From a virus, in IMG/VR virus record IMGVR_UViG_3300005253_000050, positions 1 to 64,000 of that record: a stretch of DNA of 64,000 bases; one strand, given 5' to 3'. The translations under genes were made by a program, and so were the position numbers. The notes beneath the pieces are model-generated. The model was not told where the DNA came from and ran no database searches. It saw only the letters and a program-made list of their open reading frames with translations. Shown piece after piece: positions 18,619-53,169 of the stretch; positions within the stretch are counted from its first letter, which is position 1; every line of letters starts with the position of its first letter.

Positions 18619-19327
18619 TGGATCCAAGGGGTTTACCTGGTCGCCGTCGACCGGGTGCCTCGGCCCGGGCGGGACGCTCGAACAGCCGCGGCGTTGTCCG
18701 GGCTGCTACGCTGCGGTCATCGCCGCGCGCTGGGGAAAGACCGACGTGACCAAAGGCTTCCTCCCAGAGTTCCACGAGCGCCGCCTCACGGAGCCAGCCA
18801 AGCGGAAGAAGCCGACCACCATCTTCGTCTGCTCGATGGCGGATCTCTGGGGCGACTGGGTTCCGGACGAGTGGATTCGGAAGGTGCTGAAGGTCGCCCT
18901 CGAGTGCTCGCGCCACACCTTCATCTTCCTCACGAAGAACCCGAAGCGGTATCGGGAGTTCGATCCGTACCCTCACAACGTCTGGCTCGGGGCGACGACG
19001 CGGACCAGGCCCGAGTACGTCCGCGCCGCCCACGCGCTGGACCAGGTGGCCGCGGCGGTCAGGTTCGTTTCGGTGGAGCCTATGCTCGGCCCAGTGCATC
19101 TTGACTCCAGTGGCTTCTGGAAGCCCGACTGGATCATCATCGGCGACCTCAACCGCAGCGGCAGGCCCACCGGCACAACCCAGGCCGAGTGGGTGACCGC
19201 ATTGACAGCGGACGCTAGGCGTCATAAAATTCCGGTGTTTCATAAAGACTCACTGGCGGCCCGCGGCTTCACGTCGCGAGAACTACCTGGAGGACATTAT
19301 GCCCGAGAGCAACAGCAACTCATCTAG
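18581..19327 (+). CDS. DUF5131 (phage Gp37/Gp68, radical-SAM-like) protein
   Basis: IEWC, TGC...CPGCYA, IFVCSMADL, HTFIFLTKNP, NVWLG, FVSVEP. Confidence 0.88.
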   Translation: MQATSIEWCISTDGSKGFTWSPSTGCLGPGGTLEQPRRCPGCYAAVIAARWGKTDVTKGFLPEFHERRLTEPAKRKKPTTIFVCSMADLWGDWVPDEWIRKVLKVALECSRHTFIFLTKNPKRYREFDPYPHNVWLGATTRTRPEYVRAAHALDQVAAAVRFVSVEPMLGPVHLDSSGFWKPDWIIIGDLNRSGRPTGTTQAEWVTALTADARRHKIPVFHKDSLAARGFTSRELPGGHYAREQQQLI

Positions 19328-26202: not shown

Positions 26203-28422
26203 ATGGATGAACCCAAGCCCCAGGCCGAGACGGTGGAGCAGATCGTGCAGGACATGAAGGGTGCTGCATGGGCCGCCGGGCTGGTGCCGGACGCTTTGCT
26301 CAAGGCATCGCTGGAGGCGTTCGTGGACCGCCTCGAGGCCAGCAGGGTGGCGAACTCGCTGCCCGAGAAGGTCTGGGTGAAGTGCTCCGGCGGCCTGCCT
26401 TACGCTGTGTACGTGCCTGGGTCAGACGCCCACCTCAAGGCGTCGGCGGACGAAGACCGCTTCGGGGTGGCCCACCTGGTCACCCTCCACGGGGCCGCCA
26501 AGGCAAGCACACCCCAGCAGGAGGAGGACGATGTCTGAGACATCTCGCCGCCCCCGCATCGGCCGGCCACCTGGGGTGAGGAAGCCAGTGCTCAAGCGCC
26601 ACTGGATCCCCGGCAACCCGTACTGCCCGAAGTGCTGGCGCGGGCTCAACGCCAACAATCGCAGCGGGCTGTGCTATGGCTGCGCGCCCCATCACCCCGT
26701 GCTCCCGACGAAGAAGTGCTTCGAGGCCCGCGGCCACCGCTGGCGGACCATCAGAAATACCAAGGGCTACTGGGCTAAGGCGTGCATCCACTGCGAGATC
26801 GAACGGCCGTTCACCGATGCGGAAATTGCAGTGCAAAATCAAGGAGGTTCGTGATGGCTGAGACCACGAGAGAAGAGCTGGGCGTAGTGATTCGGTCCCA
26901 CCTCGAGATGCTTCGCAGCGACAGAACCACGGCAATCGCACTCGAAGACGTCGTCGCCGTGGCCAGGTGCAATGCGAAGATCCAAGTCCTCGAGGATGTC
27001 AGCGCCGAGGCCAGCGGCGCGGACGCCGATCCCCTGATGGTGATGGCCTACGGCGCCCCGCCCATCGACGAGCGCGTGGACGAGCGGTACAAGATCGCCG
27101 GGTGGCTCCGCGGTTTCGATGCCCTCGCCCGGGCGGCCCGACGCACGGTGTCGGTGGTCACTGTCGAGGAGGTGCTGACCGCCATCGCCGCCGCCATTGA
27201 GGCGGGCGAGTACAAAAAGATGGGCCTGAAATACGAGGACACGAAATGACCCTGCCCGACGGCAAGATCAAATCCAACTGCCCGGCCTGCCTCGAGCCCG
27301 ACGTGCTGTCGCTCTCGAATTGGCCGCGAGGCTACTGCACCATCCGCTGCCGATGTGGTCTCGTCGTGAGCGTCCCCGCCGGCCCCAACCCAGCGCAGTC
27401 GGTCGCCCTCGAAATCATCGGGGCCAACGAGCTGGGAGAGAAGCAGGAAGGCGACCAGCGCCTCATCGTCCACGAGGGAGAAGCCCTGGACGTGATACCT
27501 GCAGATGAAAGGGAAATTCCATGAACAGCGCAGATATTGAAGCCGCCCGGCGGATCGTCGACAGGATGAGCGAGGTGGCTGAGGAGAGCCTGGGCGGGGG
27601 CCCTTACACCCCTCCGGCGCTTATCAAAGACTGGGCAGACAGGCTGATGCATATTTTGGGGCGGCGGGCACCGGCCATCACTGCCTTCCTGGATACCCCG
27701 GACGAAGAGGCTCGGAAGATGACCGCACCACGCGACCCATCGCTGGTCGCGCGCAACGCCGAGCGCGCCGCCCATCCGCTTGTGCAGCGGCTCACTGCCC
27801 GCCGCAAGCGGGCGATCACCGCCATGCTGACAGCGTTGGGCGGCGTAATAAAGCGCGCCGCCGAGCACGCGGCGGTGGCCGACGACATGATGCACCTCTG
27901 GCCGACCTCGTTTTTCAAGGTCGCGGCGCAGCAGGGAGTCACGATCGACACGCGGATCCACTTCTCACGGGCCTGGGACCCGGCCTGCTTCGAGCTGAAC
28001 GCCGGGTTGAAGTGCCAGATGACACTCGACCGAGAAGACTTCGCCGGCTGCGAACCGCTGCCGCTCGGGGTTGAGTTGCGGAACGACATCCCGTCGGAGG
28101 AACCATGACGCTGAAAAAATGTCCCCGGCCGGAGTGCAACGGAGAAGGAACTGGCGAGGCCTGGCCTGATTCCTACGTCAGTTGCACCAACCAGATCTGC
28201 TGGTTCTACCACAACGAGTCACCCCGCTCGGTCTGGCAGGCGCTGCTGCGCACACCCGAGCCAGGCATCAGCCGAGAGGACATCGACGGGGAGGACGTCT
28301 TCACCGTCGGTACCTGCAGGTTGGTTGGGTGTGGTGGGTCGCGCGCGATGCGGGGTGACTCCGGCGTTTCGCATTGCGTGGAGTGCGGCGACTCGTATTA
28401 CCCCGAGAGCAAAGCGAAATGA
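26203..28422 (+). CDS. array of six small hypothetical genes (26203-26538, 26531-26854, 26854-27249, 27246-27524, 27521-28108, 28105-28422)
   Basis: Coupled ORFs with RBSs; several CxxC motifs. Confidence 0.6.
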
Positions 28423-28967
28423 CCACCGAGGAGTACATCGACCTGAAGCAGCGCGTCGGCGAGGCGGGCTACTGGCACGAGATTGACTGGTCGGAGAACC
28501 TGCAGCGGTGCCAGGCCCCGTGCCATTTCATCCGGGACTACATCTTCGTGGTGTGCAACTCCGGCATGAAGGCCCAGATAGCTCGGGTCATCTTCAACAA
28601 GGTCATGCAGGCCGTGACGCGCGGCTACTCGGCCAGCCTGGAGTTTGGTCACCCAGGCAAGTCCGCCGCCATCGACCGCGCCCTCGTCGAGGGGACCGAG
28701 TGGTTCGACTTCTACCAGACGCTTGGAACGGACGGCCTGCGATTGCAGTACCTCGAGTCCCTCCCGTGGATAGGCCCCATCACCAAATGGCACCTGGCCA
28801 AGAACCTCGGGATGGACTGCGCCAAGCCCGACCGCCACCTCGTACGCATCGCCGGCAGCGCCGAGCTCGCCCATGAACTCTGCCGCAGCCTGTCCGAGGC
28901 CACTGGCGACCGAATACCCACGGTCGACCTCGTCATCTGGCGGGCCGCCAATCTCGGGTGGATGTGA
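28419..28967 (+). CDS. HhH-GPD DNA glycosylase-like protein
   Basis: LESLPWIGPITKWHLAKNLG (HhH) followed by KPDRHL (conserved Asp). Confidence 0.7.
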   Translation: MTTEEYIDLKQRVGEAGYWHEIDWSENLQRCQAPCHFIRDYIFVVCNSGMKAQIARVIFNKVMQAVTRGYSASLEFGHPGKSAAIDRALVEGTEWFDFYQTLGTDGLRLQYLESLPWIGPITKWHLAKNLGMDCAKPDRHLVRIAGSAELAHELCRSLSEATGDRIPTVDLVIWRAANLGWM

Positions 28968-29189
28968 TGACATCCTTCGGCGTCGCCAAAAAGATAGGGC
29001 CCAACCGGTATCGGGTCGTCCACTCGAAGCCAAAGGAACAGCACCACACCGGAACGCCCTGTGGATTCTGCGGCAACGGCCGGCGCTCCGACGCCCGCGG
29101 TCTGCTCTGCTCTCGCTGCCGACTCTACGCCAAGCCGAAGGCGTGGGAAAAGAAACAACGCGCCCGCAAAGGGTGAGGGGAGATTCAGG

Positions 29190-30143
29190 ATGACCACAGA
29201 CAAAACCATCGACATCCAAGACGCCTGGAGGCAGGCACTCGAACACCACGAGCGGCTCGTGCTTGAGGTACCCCGGGGTCACGGGGCCACCACGTTCCTG
29301 CTGGAAACACTGAAGTACCACCGAGGTTACCGCCGGCTATTGATGCCAACCGAGGCCAAAACAGAGAATGCTCGGCGGCGGGGTTTGTCCCACGGGGGCG
29401 TCGAGTGCATCACCACCGCTCCACCCGAAGGAATGCGGCGCCTCAACCTCCTCATGGTCGACCAGCCCGTGTATTTCTCCGACCCGTCCAGGCCCCCGGG
29501 CCTCTCGGCAGTCAAGGATGGTTGGGCGTGCTGGGCCGAGACCAACCCCACCCCCCAGCAAGTGGTCGTCATGGCTACGGTGACCCAATTAAATAGGGCC
29601 GCCCTCGCCGAACTCTTCCCGCCGGAGATATACCACCGCATTCGCTTCGCCTACACCGAGGATCTTGAGGGACTGATTCAGGATGACGGGCGGGTCGCTC
29701 CGTTCACGTCGGAGCTGTGGACGGAAGAGAAGCTCGCCAAGCGCCGGGAGGAATTGGGCGCGCGGATATTTGGCCGCGCCTTCCATGTGATCGGCACCAA
29801 GGATGTTCGCCTCTGCGAGCAATGCAAGCGTGAGCTCGAGCCCGTCCATGTGGCCACAGAACTCAAAGTTGACACCGCGGTGCTCTACGCTGACAACCTC
29901 TGGGCCATCGACGCCATGGTCGGGGACATGACCAGAGCGTGGGTGTGCCGGAGCACCCACGGTGAACCCATCCCCGTCGACAATACTTTGGAGGCGCTGG
30001 AGGAGTGGATGGCGGCAAACCTTGAGGCGACGACGTGGCTCGGGACTCGGCCGGAGAGGATACCACCTGTCTATCCGGGCGGAGTGAAGCGGGTCAATGC
30101 CGCCTTGGATCGGTTGAAGATTGCGGCGAAGGGAGAGGGCTGA
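29190..30143 (+). CDS. degenerate terminase large-subunit ATPase paralogue
   Basis: RLVLEVPRGHGATT vs TerL RLLIIAPRSHGKTS; WTEEKLAKRREELGARIFGRAF vs WTTRKLQRRRRELGPRKFARGF. Confidence 0.7.
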   Translation: MTTDKTIDIQDAWRQALEHHERLVLEVPRGHGATTFLLETLKYHRGYRRLLMPTEAKTENARRRGLSHGGVECITTAPPEGMRRLNLLMVDQPVYFSDPSRPPGLSAVKDGWACWAETNPTPQQVVVMATVTQLNRAALAELFPPEIYHRIRFAYTEDLEGLIQDDGRVAPFTSELWTEEKLAKRREELGARIFGRAFHVIGTKDVRLCEQCKRELEPVHVATELKVDTAVLYADNLWAIDAMVGDMTRAWVCRSTHGEPIPVDNTLEALEEWMAANLEATTWLGTRPERIPPVYPGGVKRVNAALDRLKIAAKGEG

Positions 30144-32818
30144 TGGCCAAGGATAAGAAGAAGACCAAGCGGGTGAAGCTGGGCGAGGGAATGAGCAAGC
30201 TGCGGAAGGGCGGGGTGAACTCCTCGCCGCCGGATGGAGCGGAGCCACCTCCGCCGCCGCCAGCGCAGCGGCGCCCACTGACCCGGGTCGACCCAGACAC
30301 GGCCGCGGCCATCAGTGAGCTAGTCGACTACGTGGCAGCTCCGGATGACGACGACGCCCGCGACCGCCTCATCCCTGGCCAGCCCACGGCGCCGTTCACC
30401 ATCGAGACGCTGGTGGGCATCGGCGAGGAGATCGAGAACGGCGTCGAGTACGTGGATGACCCGGGGTCGTGCTGCGGCAACTGCGAGTTGAGCGCCCTAT
30501 CCCATGATGGCTGTTGGCGCGACCTCTGCGACGCAACAGAGTGCAAGGACTTTGAGCCAAAGCAGCAGGAAACCTGCGATTGTCGCGACGGCTCGCCGAC
30601 ACAGGACAGCGGGGAGTGGCCTCGTCCGACCGAAGCAGACCTGAAGACCATCGCAAGGCGGGCCTGTAAACGATATGGCCACCCCTCCAAGTTCAATTCC
30701 GCTGGGTTCTCGCAGGCGTTCTCGGAACACCTTGGGCTGGCAAAGAAGGGCTTTGACGGTGGCTGGGTTTGGGCGATGCTGGACGGGCGTCCGTGGGTCA
30801 AGGGCCTGCCTGGTGAGTGTCATTGGCAACTGGTCGACGCACCTCCCAGCGCACCGGAACGCCCGTCCACCATCACGTCAGAGGACGTCAAAGAGGGCTT
30901 GGCACAGGGTGTGAAGGGTGCCGAGTACATGCGGGCCGAGCGCGGGCTAGCACCTCCCAGCGCACCGCAGACAACGCCTGCCGTGAACGAGGAGGGGCCA
31001 GCCGAAGACCCGGAACCGGTATGCAGCTTGTGTGGACGCAAGGGGAATCTATCCATGATGGGCAGTAAGTGGGTGTGCCTCTCGGCTGCGGTATGCGGTA
31101 CGGAGACGACACGGCTGCGCTGCAAGCCCGCCCCGCCCGTAGACGACAGCGGGACGGGGGAGAATTGCGAGGATTGCGGGTCCACAACAGGGCAGCACTT
31201 CACGCTCCATTGCAAGCCCACCCCGCCCGCGGTCGATCCCGTCGCGAAGGTCGACTACGTCCAGGTCGTCGATGTCTGCCCGGACTGCTCGGGGACTCTC
31301 GGCTGGTCGGACGATTTCCAGTATTGGTTGTGTGCCGACTGCCCCCGCAAGGGCACCCGTGAGGATCTTCATCCCACCAGCTGGATCACCTACTCCAAGC
31401 CCGTCCCTGGGGAGGAGGCGACCACCACCACCACGACGGTGGCCGACCTCAAGCCGTGCTGCCGAGCCCACCTTGAGGAGCAGGTCATGGACGCGGCCTT
31501 CTTCGCGCCGCTGAAGAAACAGACGCCGGCCCACGTCCGGGTGGGGGAGCTAAGGGAAGAAGTGGTGAAACTGAACATCATGCTCGAGCGCGGTGAGCGC
31601 ATCGAGGCGCAGTGCGCTGAGTTGGCTGCAAAGCTCACGGCAGCCAACGCGCAGACCGAGGCATCCAAGGCCGAGGTGGTCGGGGCGAGAGATAAATTAG
31701 CCCATGCGGAGGCCCTGCTGTATGCGGAGTCGGCGGGGCGGAACCGAGCCATCGACCAGGCTGATCAGCTCCGCACGTACGGCGCTGGCCAGCACGCCAA
31801 GGTGGACGAGCTGAAAGACCGTCTTCGCCTGGAGTACAATCGAGCCAACAGGCACTGGGACAAACAGTGCAAGGTGGAGCAGCAGGCCCGCCGCGCATCC
31901 GTGACGCTCGGCGCAGAGGTCCTCCGGTGGAAGAACAACACCGACACGGAGAGAGGGCGGCGGGTCGACGTCGAACATAGGGTCGAAACCGCCATCCAGT
32001 TCCTCATCAAGCAGATTGGAATTGTCGGCGGCGCGGAGGGAGTGGAGGCCGTCGCAGGCCGAGCGGCCATCGCGCTCAGTGCCAGGCAGCAACGAATCGG
32101 GGAGCTTCAGGACCAGGTGAACCGGCTGACCAATGATGTTGGAGCAATCCTCGACGAACGTACGGCGGACCTAGATGTGCAGATCGTGCGCATGACCCAG
32201 GCCCACGAGGAGGTTATCTCGGAACTCGGTGTCTCCCAGCAGGAAGTCGCAGACCTCCAGGGCTTGCTTGCGAACCACAACGAAGAGCGGGAGGGTCAAC
32301 TGGCTCTCGTTGAATCGCTTATGAGGCAACTCGATCGGTCGGTCCTTCGATCGGAGTGGACCTGTCCCCAGTGTGAGCAACCGTGCACGTGGGAGGATGA
32401 CCGCTGGCTCTGCAGCTCGGAGATGTGCGGGGCAAGCGGGACGCGGCCGAAGGACGACGAGGAGCAGCCAGTGTTCCACGGGAAGGGTTCGATCCCCTGC
32501 TCCAAGTGTGGGGCAACCTCTGCCGAGGCGACCCTGAGAAGCATCGGAAGGGTATGGTCCTGCTCGGACGAGAAGGCATGCATGGGGAGGTGGACGAGGA
32601 AGGACCAGCGTCCACCCGACATCCTCGACTGCTTCATGGCGAAGGGTGGCACCCCTGCATCCAGCGCCCGAGATTATCTCGTTGCCGTCCTCGAATCAGT
32701 CCGAGACATCGACGACGACGGCGCAGCGGAGTTCCTCGTCAAGGCCGTGACCAAGCTCGAGGAGCGGGTGGTCGAGCTGGAGAAGTATCGGACGGCTAAA
32801 AGAGGAGAACGACCATGA
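30143..32818 (+). CDS. large multi-Zn-ribbon / coiled-coil protein
   Basis: Many CxxC pairs flanking a long heptad-rich region. Confidence 0.65.
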   Translation: MAKDKKKTKRVKLGEGMSKLRKGGVNSSPPDGAEPPPPPPAQRRPLTRVDPDTAAAISELVDYVAAPDDDDARDRLIPGQPTAPFTIETLVGIGEEIENGVEYVDDPGSCCGNCELSALSHDGCWRDLCDATECKDFEPKQQETCDCRDGSPTQDSGEWPRPTEADLKTIARRACKRYGHPSKFNSAGFSQAFSEHLGLAKKGFDGGWVWAMLDGRPWVKGLPGECHWQLVDAPPSAPERPSTITSEDVKEGLAQGVKGAEYMRAERGLAPPSAPQTTPAVNEEGPAEDPEPVCSLCGRKGNLSMMGSKWVCLSAAVCGTETTRLRCKPAPPVDDSGTGENCEDCGSTTGQHFTLHCKPTPPAVDPVAKVDYVQVVDVCPDCSGTLGWSDDFQYWLCADCPRKGTREDLHPTSWITYSKPVPGEEATTTTTTVADLKPCCRAHLEEQVMDAAFFAPLKKQTPAHVRVGELREEVVKLNIMLERGERIEAQCAELAAKLTAANAQTEASKAEVVGARDKLAHAEALLYAESAGRNRAIDQADQLRTYGAGQHAKVDELKDRLRLEYNRANRHWDKQCKVEQQARRASVTLGAEVLRWKNNTDTERGRRVDVEHRVETAIQFLIKQIGIVGGAEGVEAVAGRAAIALSARQQRIGELQDQVNRLTNDVGAILDERTADLDVQIVRMTQAHEEVISELGVSQQEVADLQGLLANHNEEREGQLALVESLMRQLDRSVLRSEWTCPQCEQPCTWEDDRWLCSSEMCGASGTRPKDDEEQPVFHGKGSIPCSKCGATSAEATLRSIGRVWSCSDEKACMGRWTRKDQRPPDILDCFMAKGGTPASSARDYLVAVLESVRDIDDDGAAEFLVKAVTKLEERVVELEKYRTAKRGERP

Positions 32819-40033: not shown

Positions 40034-41606
40034 CAGATACCTGCAAGCAACTGAATCACAAGGGCACACGCTGCGTGCTTAGGCATCCCCACGGAGGCCC
40101 GTGCGACTTTCGCCTCGGCGGCTCCCAGGGGCACGCATGGAAAACGGTGCAGCGGTGCGGGTGCTATTACGACGCCGAGAAGTTTCTCCAGGCAGACATG
40201 TTTGCCGGGCTCCCAACAAAAATCCGGGCCATGGCAGACGGCACCTTCAAGGCCCAGGTGGGCAAGCCGCTCGCCACCACGAAGGAGGACTGAGATGGAC
40301 GTTGTCGTGACCGTACCCAAGTCCTTCGGCTTGGCCCACTGGGTGGCCGAGGGCGACGCTGCTGGGGAGCCCGAGAGCGGCGAGCAATTCCCCGGGCACG
40401 ACAAAGAGGCCACAGATCGATCTCAGGTGAGCCCCGGCCGCTGGGGAGAACACCGATGATGACGTTCGCCGAAATTGACTGGCGCCGGCAGCATCACCAC
40501 GCGACGAGAATCCGAAACCTGAGCGATATCGAGGGCAACGTGGACCTCCAGGCCGACTTCGATTATCCCGGGCCGTACCCAGCCCCTCCCGAGCCACGGA
40601 CTGCGCTCGAGTCCATGGCGCAGGCGTGGATGGTGTTGCGCGCGATCAAGCTCGACATCGAGCCGTGCCCGGCCTGCGGTTCGGCCCGCCACCAGCTCGG
40701 CTACTTCGAGGACGGCCGCTGCACCGCCTGGTGCGACAAATGCGAGGCGTGGACGGCTGCGCCTGCGAAGGAGACCCAATGAAGACCGAACCCAAGCTAT
40801 GCCCTGAGTGCGGGAAGCCCCTGCTGCCCTGCCGAGAGCTGCATCTATTGGACTTCAGGGACTATCAGCTGGTGATGTATCCTGACGGCCTATGCAGGGT
40901 TGCCGCGAGATCCCGGCCGACACCCGCCTGGGGCTGCCGGGATGGATGCTTTACGGAGGCGGTGGACTCGAGCGGGGAAGCAGAGTGGTTCCGGGCCCGC
41001 GTGCGGGCAGTTGCGACCACCGGCAAGGTGCCGTACCCAGAGACCCCTGAAGAAGGGGAGATGAAGACGCGCGAAGAAATAGAGGCTGAACTGGCTGAGA
41101 TCGAGTCGGACGAGCGGCTCGGATACGATCTGGCCACGATCGAGGTCAATGCCCTACTGGCGCTGAAGCAGCTCGTTGCCAAGACCAAGGCCGGGGTGTT
41201 GCGCTGGGTGCTGGGGCTACCGTACCTCCAATACCACGGCCAGGACGAGGAGTAGAGCGATGCCCCAATATATTCTGCACAAAGACGGCGCCTACAACAT
41301 CTACTCGACGATCGTTGATGCGCCTCTCTTCAAGGAGGCCGCACCCCACTACGAGGAGCCGAAATAATGCCCTACGATGAAGATTTAGAGTGTTGCGTCC
41401 CGGCATATTTGCTGTCGTTTCGGTGTGCCTGCGGTAAGCGCTGGGCGATGGAGGTGGAAATCCCTGTCGAAGACTGGCCGCCGGCGAAAAGCGATCCCAC
41501 CCGCCACGGGGCTCGTTGTGCATGCGGTCGGTGGATGGAGTGGAAGGGCGGAAAATTCACCGTGAGTGATGAGCCGACCGATGCATGGGGCAGACCCAAT
41601 GCCTGA
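40030..41606 (+). CDS. array of small hypothetical genes (e.g. 40456-40782, 40779-41255, 41367-41606)
   Basis: Coupled short ORFs with RBSs. Confidence 0.5.
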
Positions 41607-51200: not shown

Positions 51201-51509
51201 CAGCGAGGCGGGCTACGAGGTGATCGAGCTGCCCGAGGCCGTTTACGGCGCGCTGAGCCCAGAAACCAGATGACTCCCGCGGAGCACATCCATGGATCCC
51301 TGACCGCGGCCCTGGCCCTCAGGCTCGCCGGCAAGCCTGGCCGTTCGGCCGCCTTCGTGCTCGCTGCCGCCGTCCCGGTGCTCACGGGCCGGATCGATTG
51401 GGCTGGGGTCCAGGTGGTGGCCTCGGGGTGGCTATCCATGGCCACAGAAAACGTGATAACCTCGGGGCATGCCCAGGCCCCGATCAAAGACCCCCCGCGG
51501 CCACGCTGA
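48290..51509 (+). CDS. array of small hypothetical genes preceding TerL
   Basis: Coupled short ORFs (e.g. 48491-48946, 49704-49988, 49989-50306, 50484-50753, 50953-51273). Confidence 0.5.
49176..49694 (+). CDS. YkgJ-like Cys-cluster protein
   Basis: CTGHCC...CPHFD...CLIY...R..MCRTHP. Confidence 0.65.
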   Translation: MTTALAIRPTPPVIEFRRCTGHCCDPVTIQAGPYYHLRRVFDGMVGDVEWIADNLIYVGWRSPANGGWVERGNHEYSCPHFDKRDRRCLIYGQGKRSLMCRTHPNYGRGPWKVCLHEGCTRRTMVLDMNTRGMPRWLFPDLWNEDWDRWVAFEEDVCRPEWGADAMPPGHDE

Positions 51510-53169
51510 TATTTCCCTGCCGACCGTCCCCCCGCCCCAGCTCGCGGACGCCAAGAAGCTGAAAGAGCAGCACGTCGAGGCGGCGCGGGAGGACATCAAC
51601 GCCTTCATCGAGTACGTCTTCGAGCACTACGACAAGAACACGAAAAAGACACGGCCGTTTGTCCAGGGGTGGATGCATAAGCAGTGGCAGGCACTGATGT
51701 CTAACCACTCGAGATTGTTGATAATTGCGCCGAGGAGCCACGGGAAAACCTCGCAATGTATCGCCCGGGCCCTCTACGAGCTCGGTCGCGATCCCAACCA
51801 CCTGATCAAAATCATTTCGCAGAGTGATGCCAAGGCCGTCAAGCGCCTCTCGATGATCCGCGCGCATATGAAGGACAACAAGCGGCTGCACGACGTGTTC
51901 CCGCACCTGAAGCTCGACGAGCTCACCGAGGCCAACAAGCACCAGGTCACCGTGAAGAGATCCGCGCGGATGGCCGACCCGTCCATCGAGGCCCTCGGAA
52001 TCACGAGCAGCGCCTCCGGCGACCGAGCCACGATCCTCCTGGCCGACGACGTGGTGGACCGGCGCAACTCGATCACATTGCCGAAAGTTCGCCAGCAGAT
52101 CAAGGACGCCTGGGACGACTGGGTCAACTTATTGGGAGGCGACGGCGGACAGATTTGGTACATCGCCACCCTCTGGCACCAGGCCGCGCTGACCCACGAC
52201 CTCATGGCCAATCCCGAGTGGGCGGTGGCGTGGTACGAGATTACTAAGGCGATGGGGTGCTACGTCAAGATCCCCGACGGGCGCGAGCACAAGGCCGACT
52301 ATCCGCTCTGGGGGTGGGATCCACAGTGCAAGGTGCACCCGAGCCCCGATGAGTCCGTCCCGGTCGAACCGCCCCCCGAGCCAGCGATGAACAGCGTGAC
52401 GTGCCACTGCGGCCCGTGGACGACGCGCAAGCTGCAGCGTCGCCGCCGCGAGCTGGGCCCGCGGAAGTTCGCCCGCGGGTTTTCCAACCGGCCGATGTCT
52501 GAGGGCGAGTTGAAGATCGACCCTGACTGGATTCGTACCTACACCGAAGAGCCAGGCGACGACTGGTTCTGGTACGTCAGCCTCGACACCGCGGAATCCC
52601 AGGGCCAGCAGGCCGCTTGGACGGGGGTCGTGATTGCGGCAGTGAACCCGGCGAACGGGCACCTGAGAATTTGGGACGCGTTCCACGTCAAGATGAAGTT
52701 TCCCGACCGAGTGAAGCTGGTGATCGATCTCTACAACGAGCACCTTCCGGAGCTGGTCATAATCGAGCGCGCCGGCGGCGGCATCTCGTTGTCGGAGCAT
52801 CTCATCGAAAACACCTCGATCCCGATCTTCGGGATGCCGACGAAGACCAAAGGCGGCCACTCGAAAGATGAGCGCCTGGAGTCGACCACGCCCAGGTTGG
52901 CCAACGGGCAGATCACATTCGCCCCCGAGCTGGATCCCACGGAGGGCCTCGTCGGCCTCGACCGCGGCGACCTGCTCTCGGAGCTGCTCGAGTGGGGATC
53001 CTACCCCACGAAGGACATCGCGGACGCGTTCGCGCATTTGGCGCGCTACTGTGCTATCAAACACCCATGCGCGTGGGACGAGGGCCCCGACGGAGTGCAC
53101 GCCGGGATGAGCCTGGCGAGCCGGCGGGCGCGCGATGACGACTGCATGACCGTTACCCTGATTGGCTGA
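51469..53169 (+). CDS. terL: terminase large subunit
   Basis: APRSHGKT Walker A, LLADDVV Walker B, IATLWH, nuclease SLDTA...IIE...DIADA. Confidence 0.92.
   Translation: MPRPRSKTPRGHADISLPTVPPPQLADAKKLKEQHVEAAREDINAFIEYVFEHYDKNTKKTRPFVQGWMHKQWQALMSNHSRLLIIAPRSHGKTSQCIARALYELGRDPNHLIKIISQSDAKAVKRLSMIRAHMKDNKRLHDVFPHLKLDELTEANKHQVTVKRSARMADPSIEALGITSSASGDRATILLADDVVDRRNSITLPKVRQQIKDAWDDWVNLLGGDGGQIWYIATLWHQAALTHDLMANPEWAVAWYEITKAMGCYVKIPDGREHKADYPLWGWDPQCKVHPSPDESVPVEPPPEPAMNSVTCHCGPWTTRKLQRRRRELGPRKFARGFSNRPMSEGELKIDPDWIRTYTEEPGDDWFWYVSLDTAESQGQQAAWTGVVIAAVNPANGHLRIWDAFHVKMKFPDRVKLVIDLYNEHLPELVIIERAGGGISLSEHLIENTSIPIFGMPTKTKGGHSKDERLESTTPRLANGQITFAPELDPTEGLVGLDRGDLLSELLEWGSYPTKDIADAFAHLARYCAIKHPCAWDEGPDGVHAGMSLASRRARDDDCMTVTLIG

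What the first reader, a model, noticed from the sequence alone, without database searches (positions are those of the whole stretch)
29190..30143. Walker-A-dead, nuclease-less paralogue of the phage's own terminase: a possible decoy
Seen: collinear matches to TerL at 51469: WRQALEHHERLVLEVPRGHGATT vs WQALMSNHSRLLIIAPRSHGKTS, LMVDQPV vs LLADDVV, VVMATV vs WYIATL, and WTEEKLAKRREELGARIFGRAF vs WTTRKLQRRRRELGPRKFARGF. The Walker A Lys is Ala (GCC at 29286-29288, three changes from a Lys codon, so not a read error). The nuclease domain is replaced by an unrelated Cys-containing tail. The ORF is intact and coupled within a non-structural gene array 22 kb from TerL. Established: Avs/STAND defence proteins sense the TerL fold. 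Inference: this may be an early decoy or inhibitor of terminase sensors, or a dominant-negative regulator of its own or competing packaging motors.
Basis: partly seen in the sequence, partly recalled or inferred. Interest (0 to 1): 0.8.

Follow-up and report, generated by a model that had tools for sequence, protein, structure and literature searches.

The report
Dead terminase-ATPase copy fused to zinc module
A 93.6-kb uncultured marine-sediment phage keeps, far from its real DNA-packaging enzyme, an intact gene for a shortened copy of that enzyme's ATP-binding half. The copy has lost the residues needed to use ATP and is fused to a small, probably zinc-binding domain. It most likely works by binding rather than as an enzyme, its target is unknown, and similar dead copies turn up in other phages.

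Summary
ORF 29190-30143 (317 aa) has an N-terminal ~205-aa domain that is truly homologous to the ATPase domain of the phage's TerL at 51469-53169 (profile-profile 99.4%, E 4.7e-21; a TerL-only HMM finds it at E 2.8e-6). Walker A Lys is Ala, the second Walker B acid is Gln, and there is no nuclease domain.

New here:
- The protein is a fusion of two modules that occur as separate proteins elsewhere.
- Only three stand-alone relatives of the N-module were found among about 15 billion proteins. None of the four members keeps both the Lys and the acidic pair, so the whole family looks like pseudo-ATPases kept as intact ORFs.
- The C-module carries a CxxC...C...C/H pattern, is unrelated to the nuclease, and has a distant paralogue at 40779-41255.
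- The copy is not recent. It branches outside all 37 related TerLs on very long branches, and 24 related phage records lack it.

The decoy idea is untested. Published work shows that Avs2 and Avs3 contact terminase-bound ATP, and that T4 vs.8, a Walker-intact TerL-ATPase paralogue, triggers EcAvs2. That argues against a simple decoy.

This scan has noted similar dead terminase-ATPase copies on other DNA (unchecked notes). Verdict: a real new variant of a known but unexplained kind, of moderate interest.

The parts
29190..30143 (+). Whole gene, 317 aa (P0001): TerL-ATPase-like N-module fused to a Cys/His C-module
   Evidence: The start is supported by GGGGAG at 29177-29182 and by the N-termini of relatives.
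29190..29804 (+). N-module, residues 1-205: shortened homologue of the TerL ATPase domain (TerL residues about 67-343)
   Evidence: hhalign 99.4%, E 4.7e-21. TerL-only HMM E 2.8e-6. VIA-align top hit is the PhiV-1 terminase, Z 13.6, rmsd 2.9 A over 147 residues. The Atlas's own model matches terminase clusters at TM 0.63.
29271..29294 (+). Degenerate Walker A, PRGHGATT; the Lys position is Ala (GCC 29286-29288)
   Evidence: Lys is kept in 97% of the 37 TerLs. The four family members carry A, S, K and A.
29448..29465 (+). Degenerate Walker B, LLMVDQ: first Asp kept, second acidic residue replaced by Gln
   Evidence: DD is invariant in the 37 TerLs.
29718..29783 (+). Lid-like segment, W177-F198, the stretch most like TerL (13 of 22 residues identical)
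   Evidence: The identity is at the protein level; DNA identity is only moderate.
29805..30140 (+). C-module, residues 206-317: candidate ligands C209, C212, C253 and H257 (Cys in most relatives), then helices; acidic (pI 5.2)
   Evidence: It is stand-alone or N-terminal in P0003, P0004, P0005, P0007 and P0008. Charge. Modelled as a four-strand sheet plus two helices at pLDDT 60-87.
51469..53169 (+). The phage's working large terminase (TerL), 566 aa, with Walker A SHGKTS and Walker B LLADD
   Evidence: PHROG 38, E 2e-67. 58 homologues found.
40779..41255 (+). Distant paralogue of the C-module in the same genome (158 aa), with CxxC, YPDGL, AWGCRDGC and EW
   Evidence: BLASTP E 0.037. hhalign 93.6%, E 2e-7.

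Best explanation
The gene encodes a pseudo-ATPase: a shortened, old and fast-evolving offshoot of this phage lineage's large-terminase ATPase domain. It keeps the fold-determining residues but has lost the Walker A lysine, the catalytic Walker B acid and the VDRRN motif that follows Walker B in the TerLs. It has no nuclease domain. In this phage it is joined end to end to a small acidic domain that probably binds zinc and that is a separate protein in other phages.

It is an optional accessory gene in a long array of small non-structural genes, 22 kb upstream of terL. I infer that it acts by binding a protein partner, not by hydrolysing ATP or moving DNA. The TerL-shaped core would provide one binding surface and the C-module a second one, making it an adaptor or mimic. 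The rapid divergence, patchy distribution, module shuffling and genomic position fit a role in phage-host or phage-phage conflict better than a core packaging role.

Shown: homology, loss of the motifs, the fusion, the rarity of the family, and intact ORFs. Inferred: binding-only action, a conflict role and zinc binding. The partner is unknown.
For: Homology to the TerL ATPase domain.

Fold: PhiV-1 terminase top at Z 13.6, T4 gp17 at Z 12.7; an independent Atlas model matches terminase clusters at TM 0.63.

Catalytic motifs are lost across the whole family. Walker A Lys position: A, S, K, A. Second Walker B acid: Q, R, S, D. No member keeps both, whereas the 37 TerLs keep them at 97-100%.

The family is maintained rather than decaying. 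The three stand-alone relatives are intact ORFs of 209-225 aa, and the window's N-module is about 205 aa. They share 20 invariant positions, including a family-specific PP motif that is absent from TerL, at only 23-39% pairwise identity.

Fusion of two independent modules.

Accessory status: the gene is absent from 24 related phage records, 8 of them complete. The N-module profile finds only the TerL gene in 23 of these records and nothing in the other one.

Very long branches outside all TerLs.

Loss of TerL's positive charge (TerL ATPase pI 9.5, +12; N-module pI 6.7; C-module pI 5.2) argues against DNA handling.

Genomic setting: tightly coupled small genes, with a DNA-glycosylase-like gene and a DNA methyltransferase nearby.
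Against: No partner was identified and no binding was shown. Nothing is known about expression. The DNA of the relatives could not be fetched, so neither dN/dS nor gene order could be measured. P0009 keeps the Walker A Lys, so nucleotide binding may persist in part of the family. The better structural model used TerL sequences in its alignment, so it is not independent of the homology claim. The family-only model was poor (pLDDT 56). SF2 helicase domains tie with terminases in the fold searches.
Confidence: 0.55

Rival explanations
1. Decoy or inhibitor of host terminase sensors (Avs1-3, Upx). The protein would be made before TerL and would occupy the sensor's TerL pocket without allowing activation, perhaps because the fused C-module blocks oligomerisation.
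For: The fold is TerL-like. The gene lies in a non-structural array far from terL. It diverges fast and is patchily distributed, as is typical of conflict genes. The ATPase domain alone is what EcAvs2 and Upx recognise, and Upx does not need the catalytic residues (PMC13601566). The authors of that paper themselves suggest that TerL-like non-terminase activators may be anti-defence proteins.
Against: EcAvs2 and SeAvs3 contact the terminase-bound ATP and active-site residues, and the EcAvs2 interface relies on shape and charge complementarity (PMC13601566). This protein lacks the Walker A Lys and has lost TerL's positive charge. The one tested TerL-ATPase paralogue, T4 vs.8, activates EcAvs2 rather than inhibiting it. 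In the one catalogue consulted, the anti-Avs proteins discussed (ORF55, ORF83) are not TerL mimics (bioRxiv 10.1101/2025.06.06.658234). The host and its defences are unknown.
Confidence: 0.12
2. Regulator or poison subunit of a packaging motor, either the phage's own (timing control) or a competitor's (exclusion). The dead subunit would dock on TerL ATPase domains and stall or cap the ring.
For: The segments best conserved with TerL include the lid-like helices. The window protein keeps an Arg (R84) at the position of the invariant TerL Arg that lies seven residues before the Walker B Asp. It is my inference, not shown here, that this is the trans-acting finger. Dead paralogues acting inside ring ATPases have precedents, such as the clamp-loader delta' subunit (established knowledge).
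Against: The gene is 22 kb from the packaging module and sits in a non-structural array. It lacks the N-terminal ~65 residues of TerL and the nuclease domain. The Arg is not conserved across the family: R, Q, L, R. The residues shared with TerL are mostly hydrophobic core residues rather than surface ones. Related phages do without the gene.
Confidence: 0.15
3. A decaying relic with no function: a leftover of an old terminase duplication or acquisition that happens still to be open.
For: The catalytic residues are lost. The family is tiny. One metagenome sample carries a structural variant inside the gene.
Against: Four members at 23-39% identity all keep full-length open frames, the same domain boundaries, 20 invariant positions and a new family-specific PP motif. 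Codon-position GC is that of a normal gene here: 0.64, 0.50 and 0.75 for positions 1, 2 and 3. The gene has a ribosome-binding site and is translationally coupled to its neighbour.
Confidence: 0.06

Closest known systems
T4 vs.8 (AAD42678.1, 219 aa), described in PMC13601566 as an uncharacterised ATPase-like protein homologous to the T4 terminase ATPase domain
   Same: It is a short protein of about 200-220 aa that copies only the ATPase domain of its own phage's TerL. It is encoded among early or non-structural genes far from the terminase gene, and its function is unknown.
   Different: vs.8 keeps Walker A (GKS) and Walker B (DE) and activates EcAvs2. The family here has lost them. There is no detectable sequence relationship between the two (hhalign E 0.18), so they are independent offshoots of different TerL lineages. 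vs.8 is basic (pI 9.3), whereas this protein is not. vs.8 has no fused C-module of this kind.
Large terminase (TerL) of this phage lineage (PHROG 38; T7-type by NCBIfam)
   Same: The ATPase-domain fold is shared, as are the collinear motifs: the W..R.h.h.PR.HG strand and P-loop, the Walker B Asp, the W of the helix after Walker B, and the lid-like W..L..RR.ELG..F.R.F.
   Different: It lacks the Walker A Lys, the catalytic acid, the VDRRN motif and the nuclease domain. About 80 residues of insertions and the N-terminal ~65 residues are missing. It has lost the positive charge.
Ksap1 and Ksap2, the non-terminase activators of KpAvs2 (PMC11564622; PMC13601566)
   Same: They are lineage-restricted phage proteins of unknown function. 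Their sheet-and-helix core is said to resemble the terminase ATPase.
   Different: No sequence or fold comparison was made here. They are known as triggers, not inhibitors.
Dead or truncated terminase-ATPase paralogues noted earlier in this scan (P1/D6 phage-plasmids, T4-like and jumbo phages, phage 186, RaK2-like 'truncated large terminase')
   Same: The theme is the same: an ATPase-only copy, often catalytically dead, sometimes with the nuclease replaced by a small domain, and of unknown function (AI notes not checked here).
   Different: Those derive from other TerL lineages, and most lie next to terL. This one is 22 kb away and is fused to a Cys/His module. A library search for the phrase 'truncated large terminase' found no paper.

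Membership tests
Large terminase subunit (TerL) | ASCE ATPase domain homologous to other TerLs | tested here: met
   hhalign 99.4%, E 4.7e-21. TerL-only HMM E 2.8e-6. Fold matches.
Large terminase subunit (TerL) | Walker A lysine | tested here: not met
   GHGATT, with Ala from GCC at 29286-29288. Lys is kept in 97% of 37 TerLs.
Large terminase subunit (TerL) | Walker B with a catalytic carboxylate | tested here: not met
   LLMVDQ against the invariant DD of the TerLs.
Large terminase subunit (TerL) | C-terminal RNase H-like nuclease domain | tested here: not met
   The TerL profile matches only as far as residue ~203. The C-module against TerL gives hhalign probability 0.95%.
T4 vs.8-like stand-alone TerL-ATPase paralogues | Short protein copying only the ATPase domain of the phage's own TerL lineage | tested here: met
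   The N-module is ~205 aa. Its relatives P0006, P0009 and P0010 are stand-alone proteins of 209-225 aa.
T4 vs.8-like stand-alone TerL-ATPase paralogues | Sequence homology to vs.8 itself | tested here: not met
   hhalign E 0.18, probability 0.3%.
T4 vs.8-like stand-alone TerL-ATPase paralogues | [quoted passage not shown] | tested here: not met
   vs.8 has GKS and DE. No member of this family keeps both.
T4 vs.8-like stand-alone TerL-ATPase paralogues | Activates EcAvs2 on co-expression | not testable with these tools
   This needs a co-expression toxicity assay like the one in PMC13601566.
Zinc-ribbon-type metal-binding domain (C-module) | Two pairs of Cys/His ligands flanking beta-hairpins | tested here: inconclusive
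   C209, C212 and C253 are invariant, and position 257 is Cys or His in all six sequences. The model shows four strands between the two pairs, at pLDDT 60-87. No fold or Pfam match was found. Metal content cannot be tested here.
Phage anti-Avs proteins or terminase-sensor decoys | Binds or inhibits an Avs or Upx sensor | not testable with these tools
In the catalogue consulted, the anti-Avs proteins discussed are a DNA ligase and a DprA/Smf-like protein.

The most novel reading that the evidence does not exclude
The protein is a TerL-shaped decoy made before the real terminase. Its inert ATPase-like core would occupy the terminase pocket of host pattern-recognition sensors (Avs1-3 or Upx type), while the fused acidic zinc module would prevent the oligomerisation that fires them. 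That would be the first natural anti-defence protein that works by mimicking the conserved phage protein the sensor looks for.
Probability: 0.1. Interest if true: 0.85.

Novelty: new variant of a known kind. Interest (0 to 1): 0.42.

Why it matters
ATPase-only copies of the large terminase keep turning up in unrelated phages: T4 vs.8 in print, and many unchecked notes in this scan. Nobody knows what they do. This family is an extreme case. Every member is predicted to be catalytically dead, yet all are kept intact. Here the copy is fused to a second module that elsewhere is a separate gene. That fusion hints that the two modules work together and offers a handle for finding the partner.

Terminase is the main target of several bacterial immune sensors, so a terminase-shaped non-enzyme could be a trigger, a shield or a motor regulator. 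Finding out which would show how phages cope with immunity aimed at proteins they cannot change. This particular example comes from an uncultured sediment phage with only three known relatives, so it is a weaker experimental entry point than the T4 or P1-type examples.

Tried and rejected
The contigs of the relatives (P0003-P0010) could not be fetched, so no gene order and no dN/dS are available.

Searches for related loci that found nothing:
- Both modules against viral contigs.
- Both modules against metagenome contigs.
- The C-module against genome contigs.
- TerL as a single sequence against viral contigs.
- tblastn against 50,697 GenBank phage records.
- The C-module profile against 24 related phage records.
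- A second profile search for N-module relatives added no members.

No family match for P0001 in Pfam, PHROGs, NCBIfam, PADLOC or PDB sequences.

Structure:
- The family-only AlphaFold model was poor (pLDDT 56). Its fold searches gave only generic P-loop ATPases.

Complex prediction of the TerL ATPase domain with the N-module family gave no verdict (score 0.00, controls not run). This is not evidence either way.

No listed sequencing run that holds the stretch is on record as RNA.

Comparisons that showed no relationship:
- N-module against T4 vs.8.
- C-module against the TerL nuclease.
- The Cys-rich tail of P0006 against the C-module.

Rejected idea: recent gene conversion from terL. DNA identity in the lid-like segment is only moderate.

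A literature search for 'truncated large terminase' or 'gp17.2' found nothing relevant.

Full report
SETTING. The window is the first 64 kb of a 93.6-kb virus record with direct terminal repeats, rated complete. Its GC content is 62%. Near-identical DNA stands in three marine-sediment metagenome runs from one study. Almost all genes lie on the + strand. Recognisable genes include:
- a RecE-like exonuclease, RecT, a DnaB-type helicase and a large helicase at 6-19 kb;
- a DNA methyltransferase at 35.4 kb;
- a serine recombinase at 39.2 kb;
- TerL at 51.5 kb and the portal at 56.5 kb.

The stretch from about 19 to 35 kb is an array of short, tightly packed genes with no family matches, many of them rich in CxxC pairs. 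A strong sigma-70-like site lies at 19202-19230 and no + strand terminator-like site follows it. These are consensus matches only.

The ORF 29190-30143 is open and encodes 317 aa (P0001). A GGGGAG box lies 7 nt before the ATG, and the stop overlaps the next gene's ATG as TGATG. The N-termini of relatives agree with this start. GCC at 29286-29288 encodes Ala in GHGATT, where TerL has SHGKTS.

The TerL at 51469-53169 is a genuine large terminase (PHROG 38, E 2e-67). Several results tie P0001 to it:
- BLASTP of the two proteins gives two collinear HSPs, E 4e-5 and 3e-4.
- In an all-against-all BLASTP of 106 ORFs of the whole genome, this is the best pair.
- The exhaustive search found three stand-alone relatives of the N-terminal part. 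The profile of these four sequences matches a profile of 37 TerLs at 99.4% probability, E 4.7e-21, over 199 columns.
- An HMM built from TerLs alone finds this ORF, and nothing else besides terL, in a six-frame search of the genome (E 2.8e-6 and 2e-3).
- Conversely, the N-module profile finds the TerL gene in 23 of 24 related phage records.

STRUCTURE. With only family members in the alignment, the AlphaFold model was poor (pLDDT 56) and matched P-loop ATPases in general. With the TerLs added, the N-module model reached pLDDT 74.
- By Foldseek its best solved match is the PhiV-1 terminase (E 2.7e-5).
- By VIA-align the best match is also the PhiV-1 terminase (Z 13.6, rmsd 2.9 A, 147 residues), with T4 gp17 at Z 12.7. 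SF2 helicase N-domains tie at Z 12-13.
- That model is not independent of the homology claim. The Atlas's own model of this protein, which was not built from my TerL-enriched alignment, also has terminase clusters among its nearest neighbours (TM 0.63), beside SF2 helicases.

WHAT IS NEW: A FUSION OF TWO MODULES. The exhaustive search of 1.8 billion representatives found only eight relatives. They fall into two groups:
- P0006, P0009 and P0010 (209-225 aa) match residues 7-213 and end there.
- P0003, P0004, P0005, P0007 and P0008 match residues ~205-315, and in all of them this part begins at the protein's own N-terminus.

In the window the two parts are joined by about six residues (FHV-IGTKDV-RLCEQC). 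A GTG at 29787 and an out-of-frame TGA at 29788-29790 could be a relic of an overlapping stop and start, but that is speculation.

The C-module has invariant C209, C212 and C253. Position 257 is Cys or His in all six sequences, which is the usual signature of a metal ligand. The model places four strands between the two ligand pairs and two helices after them. It has no Pfam match, no fold match and no relation to the TerL nuclease. It has a distant paralogue in the same genome at 40779-41255 (hhalign 93.6%, E 2e-7). In P0004 it is followed by a module resembling the window's ORF 27246-27524. These small Cys-rich modules are therefore being shuffled in this phage group.

THE WHOLE FAMILY IS CATALYTICALLY DISABLED.

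| Member | Walker A | Walker B region |
|---|---|---|
| Window protein | GHGATT | LLMVDQ |
| P0006 | AHGSTS | LLLDR |
| P0010 | AHGATT | VLIDD |
| P0009 | SHGKSE | LIVDS |

No member keeps both the Lys and the acidic pair. Among the 37 TerLs, Lys is kept in 97% and DD in 100%. The VDRRN motif after Walker B and the Arg seven residues before the Walker B Asp are invariant in the TerLs. In the family that Arg reads R, Q, L, R, and VDRRN is gone.

What the family shares with TerL is mostly hydrophobic or structural: W13, P28, H31, G32, D91, W115, W177, L182, F194 and F198. The family also has its own invariant PP motif just before the Walker B strand, where TerL has SSASG.

At 23-39% pairwise identity, the three stand-alone relatives are still full-length ORFs of 209-225 aa, close to the ~205-aa N-module of the window protein. 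This is not what neutral decay produces, so I read the family as maintained pseudo-ATPases. dN/dS could not be computed because the DNA of the relatives was out of reach.

AGE AND DISTRIBUTION.
- In a tree of the shared columns, the four members form one side of a branch (SH-aLRT 90) outside all 37 TerLs. Their end branches are 4-10 changes per column against a median of 0.19. The copy is therefore old, fast-evolving, or both, and it does not nest beside this phage's own TerL.
- DNA identity in the best-conserved segment is only moderate, so there has been no recent gene conversion.
- None of 24 related IMG/VR records (TerL 30-50% identical to the window's, 8 of them complete) carries either module.
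- The close relatives whose TerL is 78-79% identical (P0012-P0015) could not be reached.
- The gene is an accessory gene of a narrow lineage.

CHARGE. The TerL ATPase domain is strongly basic (pI 9.5, about +12), as expected for a DNA motor. The N-module is near neutral (pI 6.7) and the C-module is acidic (pI 5.2). This argues against DNA binding or translocation and for protein binding.

COMPARISON WITH WHAT IS KNOWN. The closest published thing is T4 vs.8. Evans et al. (PMC13601566) describe it as an uncharacterised ATPase-like protein homologous to the T4 terminase ATPase domain, with conserved Walker A and B. [quoted passage not shown] I fetched it (219 aa; GKS and DE present; pI 9.3). It has no detectable sequence relationship to the family here. 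The two are independent offshoots of different TerL lineages. They are the same kind of thing but not the same family.

The same paper reports that:
- EcAvs2 and Upx are activated by the ATPase domain alone;
- EcAvs2 holds a bridging ATP against the terminase-bound ATP;
- SeAvs3 recognises active-site residues and the bound ATP;
- Upx still fires on Walker B mutants.

Its authors suggest that the non-terminase activators may be anti-defence proteins that the sensors later learned to see. In a catalogue of 268 anti-defence proteins, the anti-Avs proteins discussed are a DNA ligase and a DprA/Smf-like protein, not TerL mimics.

Earlier notes of this scan (AI notes, not checked here) describe many dead or truncated terminase-ATPase paralogues in other phages. 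These include P1/D6 phage-plasmids where the nuclease is also replaced by a small domain, T4-like and jumbo phages, and phage 186. The theme recurs, although I found no paper using the phrase 'truncated large terminase'.

MECHANISM.
- Shown: a TerL-ATPase fold without the catalytic set, fused to a Cys/His module, kept intact in four lineages, optional, and fast-evolving.
- Inferred: it works by binding. I rank a conflict-related binding or mimicry role first, on the grounds of position, divergence, patchiness, module shuffling, and neighbours that include a glycosylase-like gene and a methyltransferase.
- The specific Avs-decoy version gets about 0.1. The sensors studied so far read the ATP site and the charge that this protein has lost, and the one tested paralogue is a trigger. 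An alternative I cannot separate from this is that ATP binding was lost in order to escape such sensors, while another function was kept.
- A poison-subunit or regulator role at the packaging motor gets about 0.15. The lid-like helices and, in this member, the Arg before Walker B are kept. However, the gene is far from the packaging module, lacks TerL's N-terminal ~65 residues and nuclease domain, and related phages manage without it.
- A complex prediction of the TerL ATPase domain with the N-module family gave no verdict.

A STRUCTURAL VARIANT. In one run from a second sample, the unitigs break at 29506-29535 and 30105-30134, and a 60-nt unitig joins the two boundary 30-mers. Reading the minus-strand record coordinates, the joint is 30134 to 29506. 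The inner piece is deeper (66.6) than the flanks (33.7 and 51), with the joint at 47.2. Both points fit a 629-bp tandem duplication inside the gene rather than a deletion. The first copy would then encode residues 1-315 plus a 25-residue out-of-frame tail. This needs raw reads to confirm. If real, the gene is in flux in nature but its full-length reading frame is essentially kept.

VERDICT. The functional reading stays open, and published data lean against a simple decoy. This is a new variant of a known but unexplained kind. Interest is moderate, because the class is recurrent and puzzling but this member comes from an uncultured phage with almost no relatives.

Noticed in passing
window 29506-30134: In one of three metagenome runs (a second sample of the same study), a 60-nt unitig joins 30134 to 29506, and the inner 629-bp unitig is deeper than its flanks. 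This looks like a 629-bp tandem duplication inside the gene, giving residues 1-315 plus a 25-aa out-of-frame tail. The direction of the joint was inferred from minus-strand record coordinates.
   Followed up: partly
window 28419-28967 (+): The 182-aa protein two genes upstream matches PADLOC's OGG model at E 1e-37 but has no Pfam or PHROG match. By eye it carries a helix-hairpin-helix-like stretch followed by an Asp, so it may be a phage DNA glycosylase.
   Followed up: no
window 40779-41255 (+): A 158-aa protein is a distant paralogue of the C-module, with CxxC, YPDGL, AWGCRDGC and EW (hhalign 93.6%, E 2e-7).
   Followed up: partly
window 27246-27524 (+) and protein P0004: P0004 carries the C-module followed by a CPAC...CPCG segment that, by eye, resembles this 92-aa window ORF. 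This suggests shuffling of small Cys-rich modules among early genes of this phage group.
   Followed up: no
window 30143-32818 (+): The next gene is translationally coupled to P0001. It encodes an 891-aa protein with many Cys pairs. It has no family match apart from a weak hit to the SMC-like LmuB model (E 6.5e-4).
   Followed up: no
TerL relatives P0016, P0057, P0061, P0063, P0067: Several TerL homologues of this lineage are 850-963 aa long and carry intein or homing-endonuclease Pfam domains (PF14528, PF14890, PF13403). Inteins therefore recur in this terminase family; the window's TerL has none.
   Followed up: no
window 19202-19230 (+): An 11-of-12 match to a sigma-70 promoter (TTGACA, 17 nt, TAAAAT) lies at the head of the long array of small + strand genes, and no + strand terminator-like site follows before 37 kb. 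This is a consensus match only, and the host is unknown.
   Followed up: no
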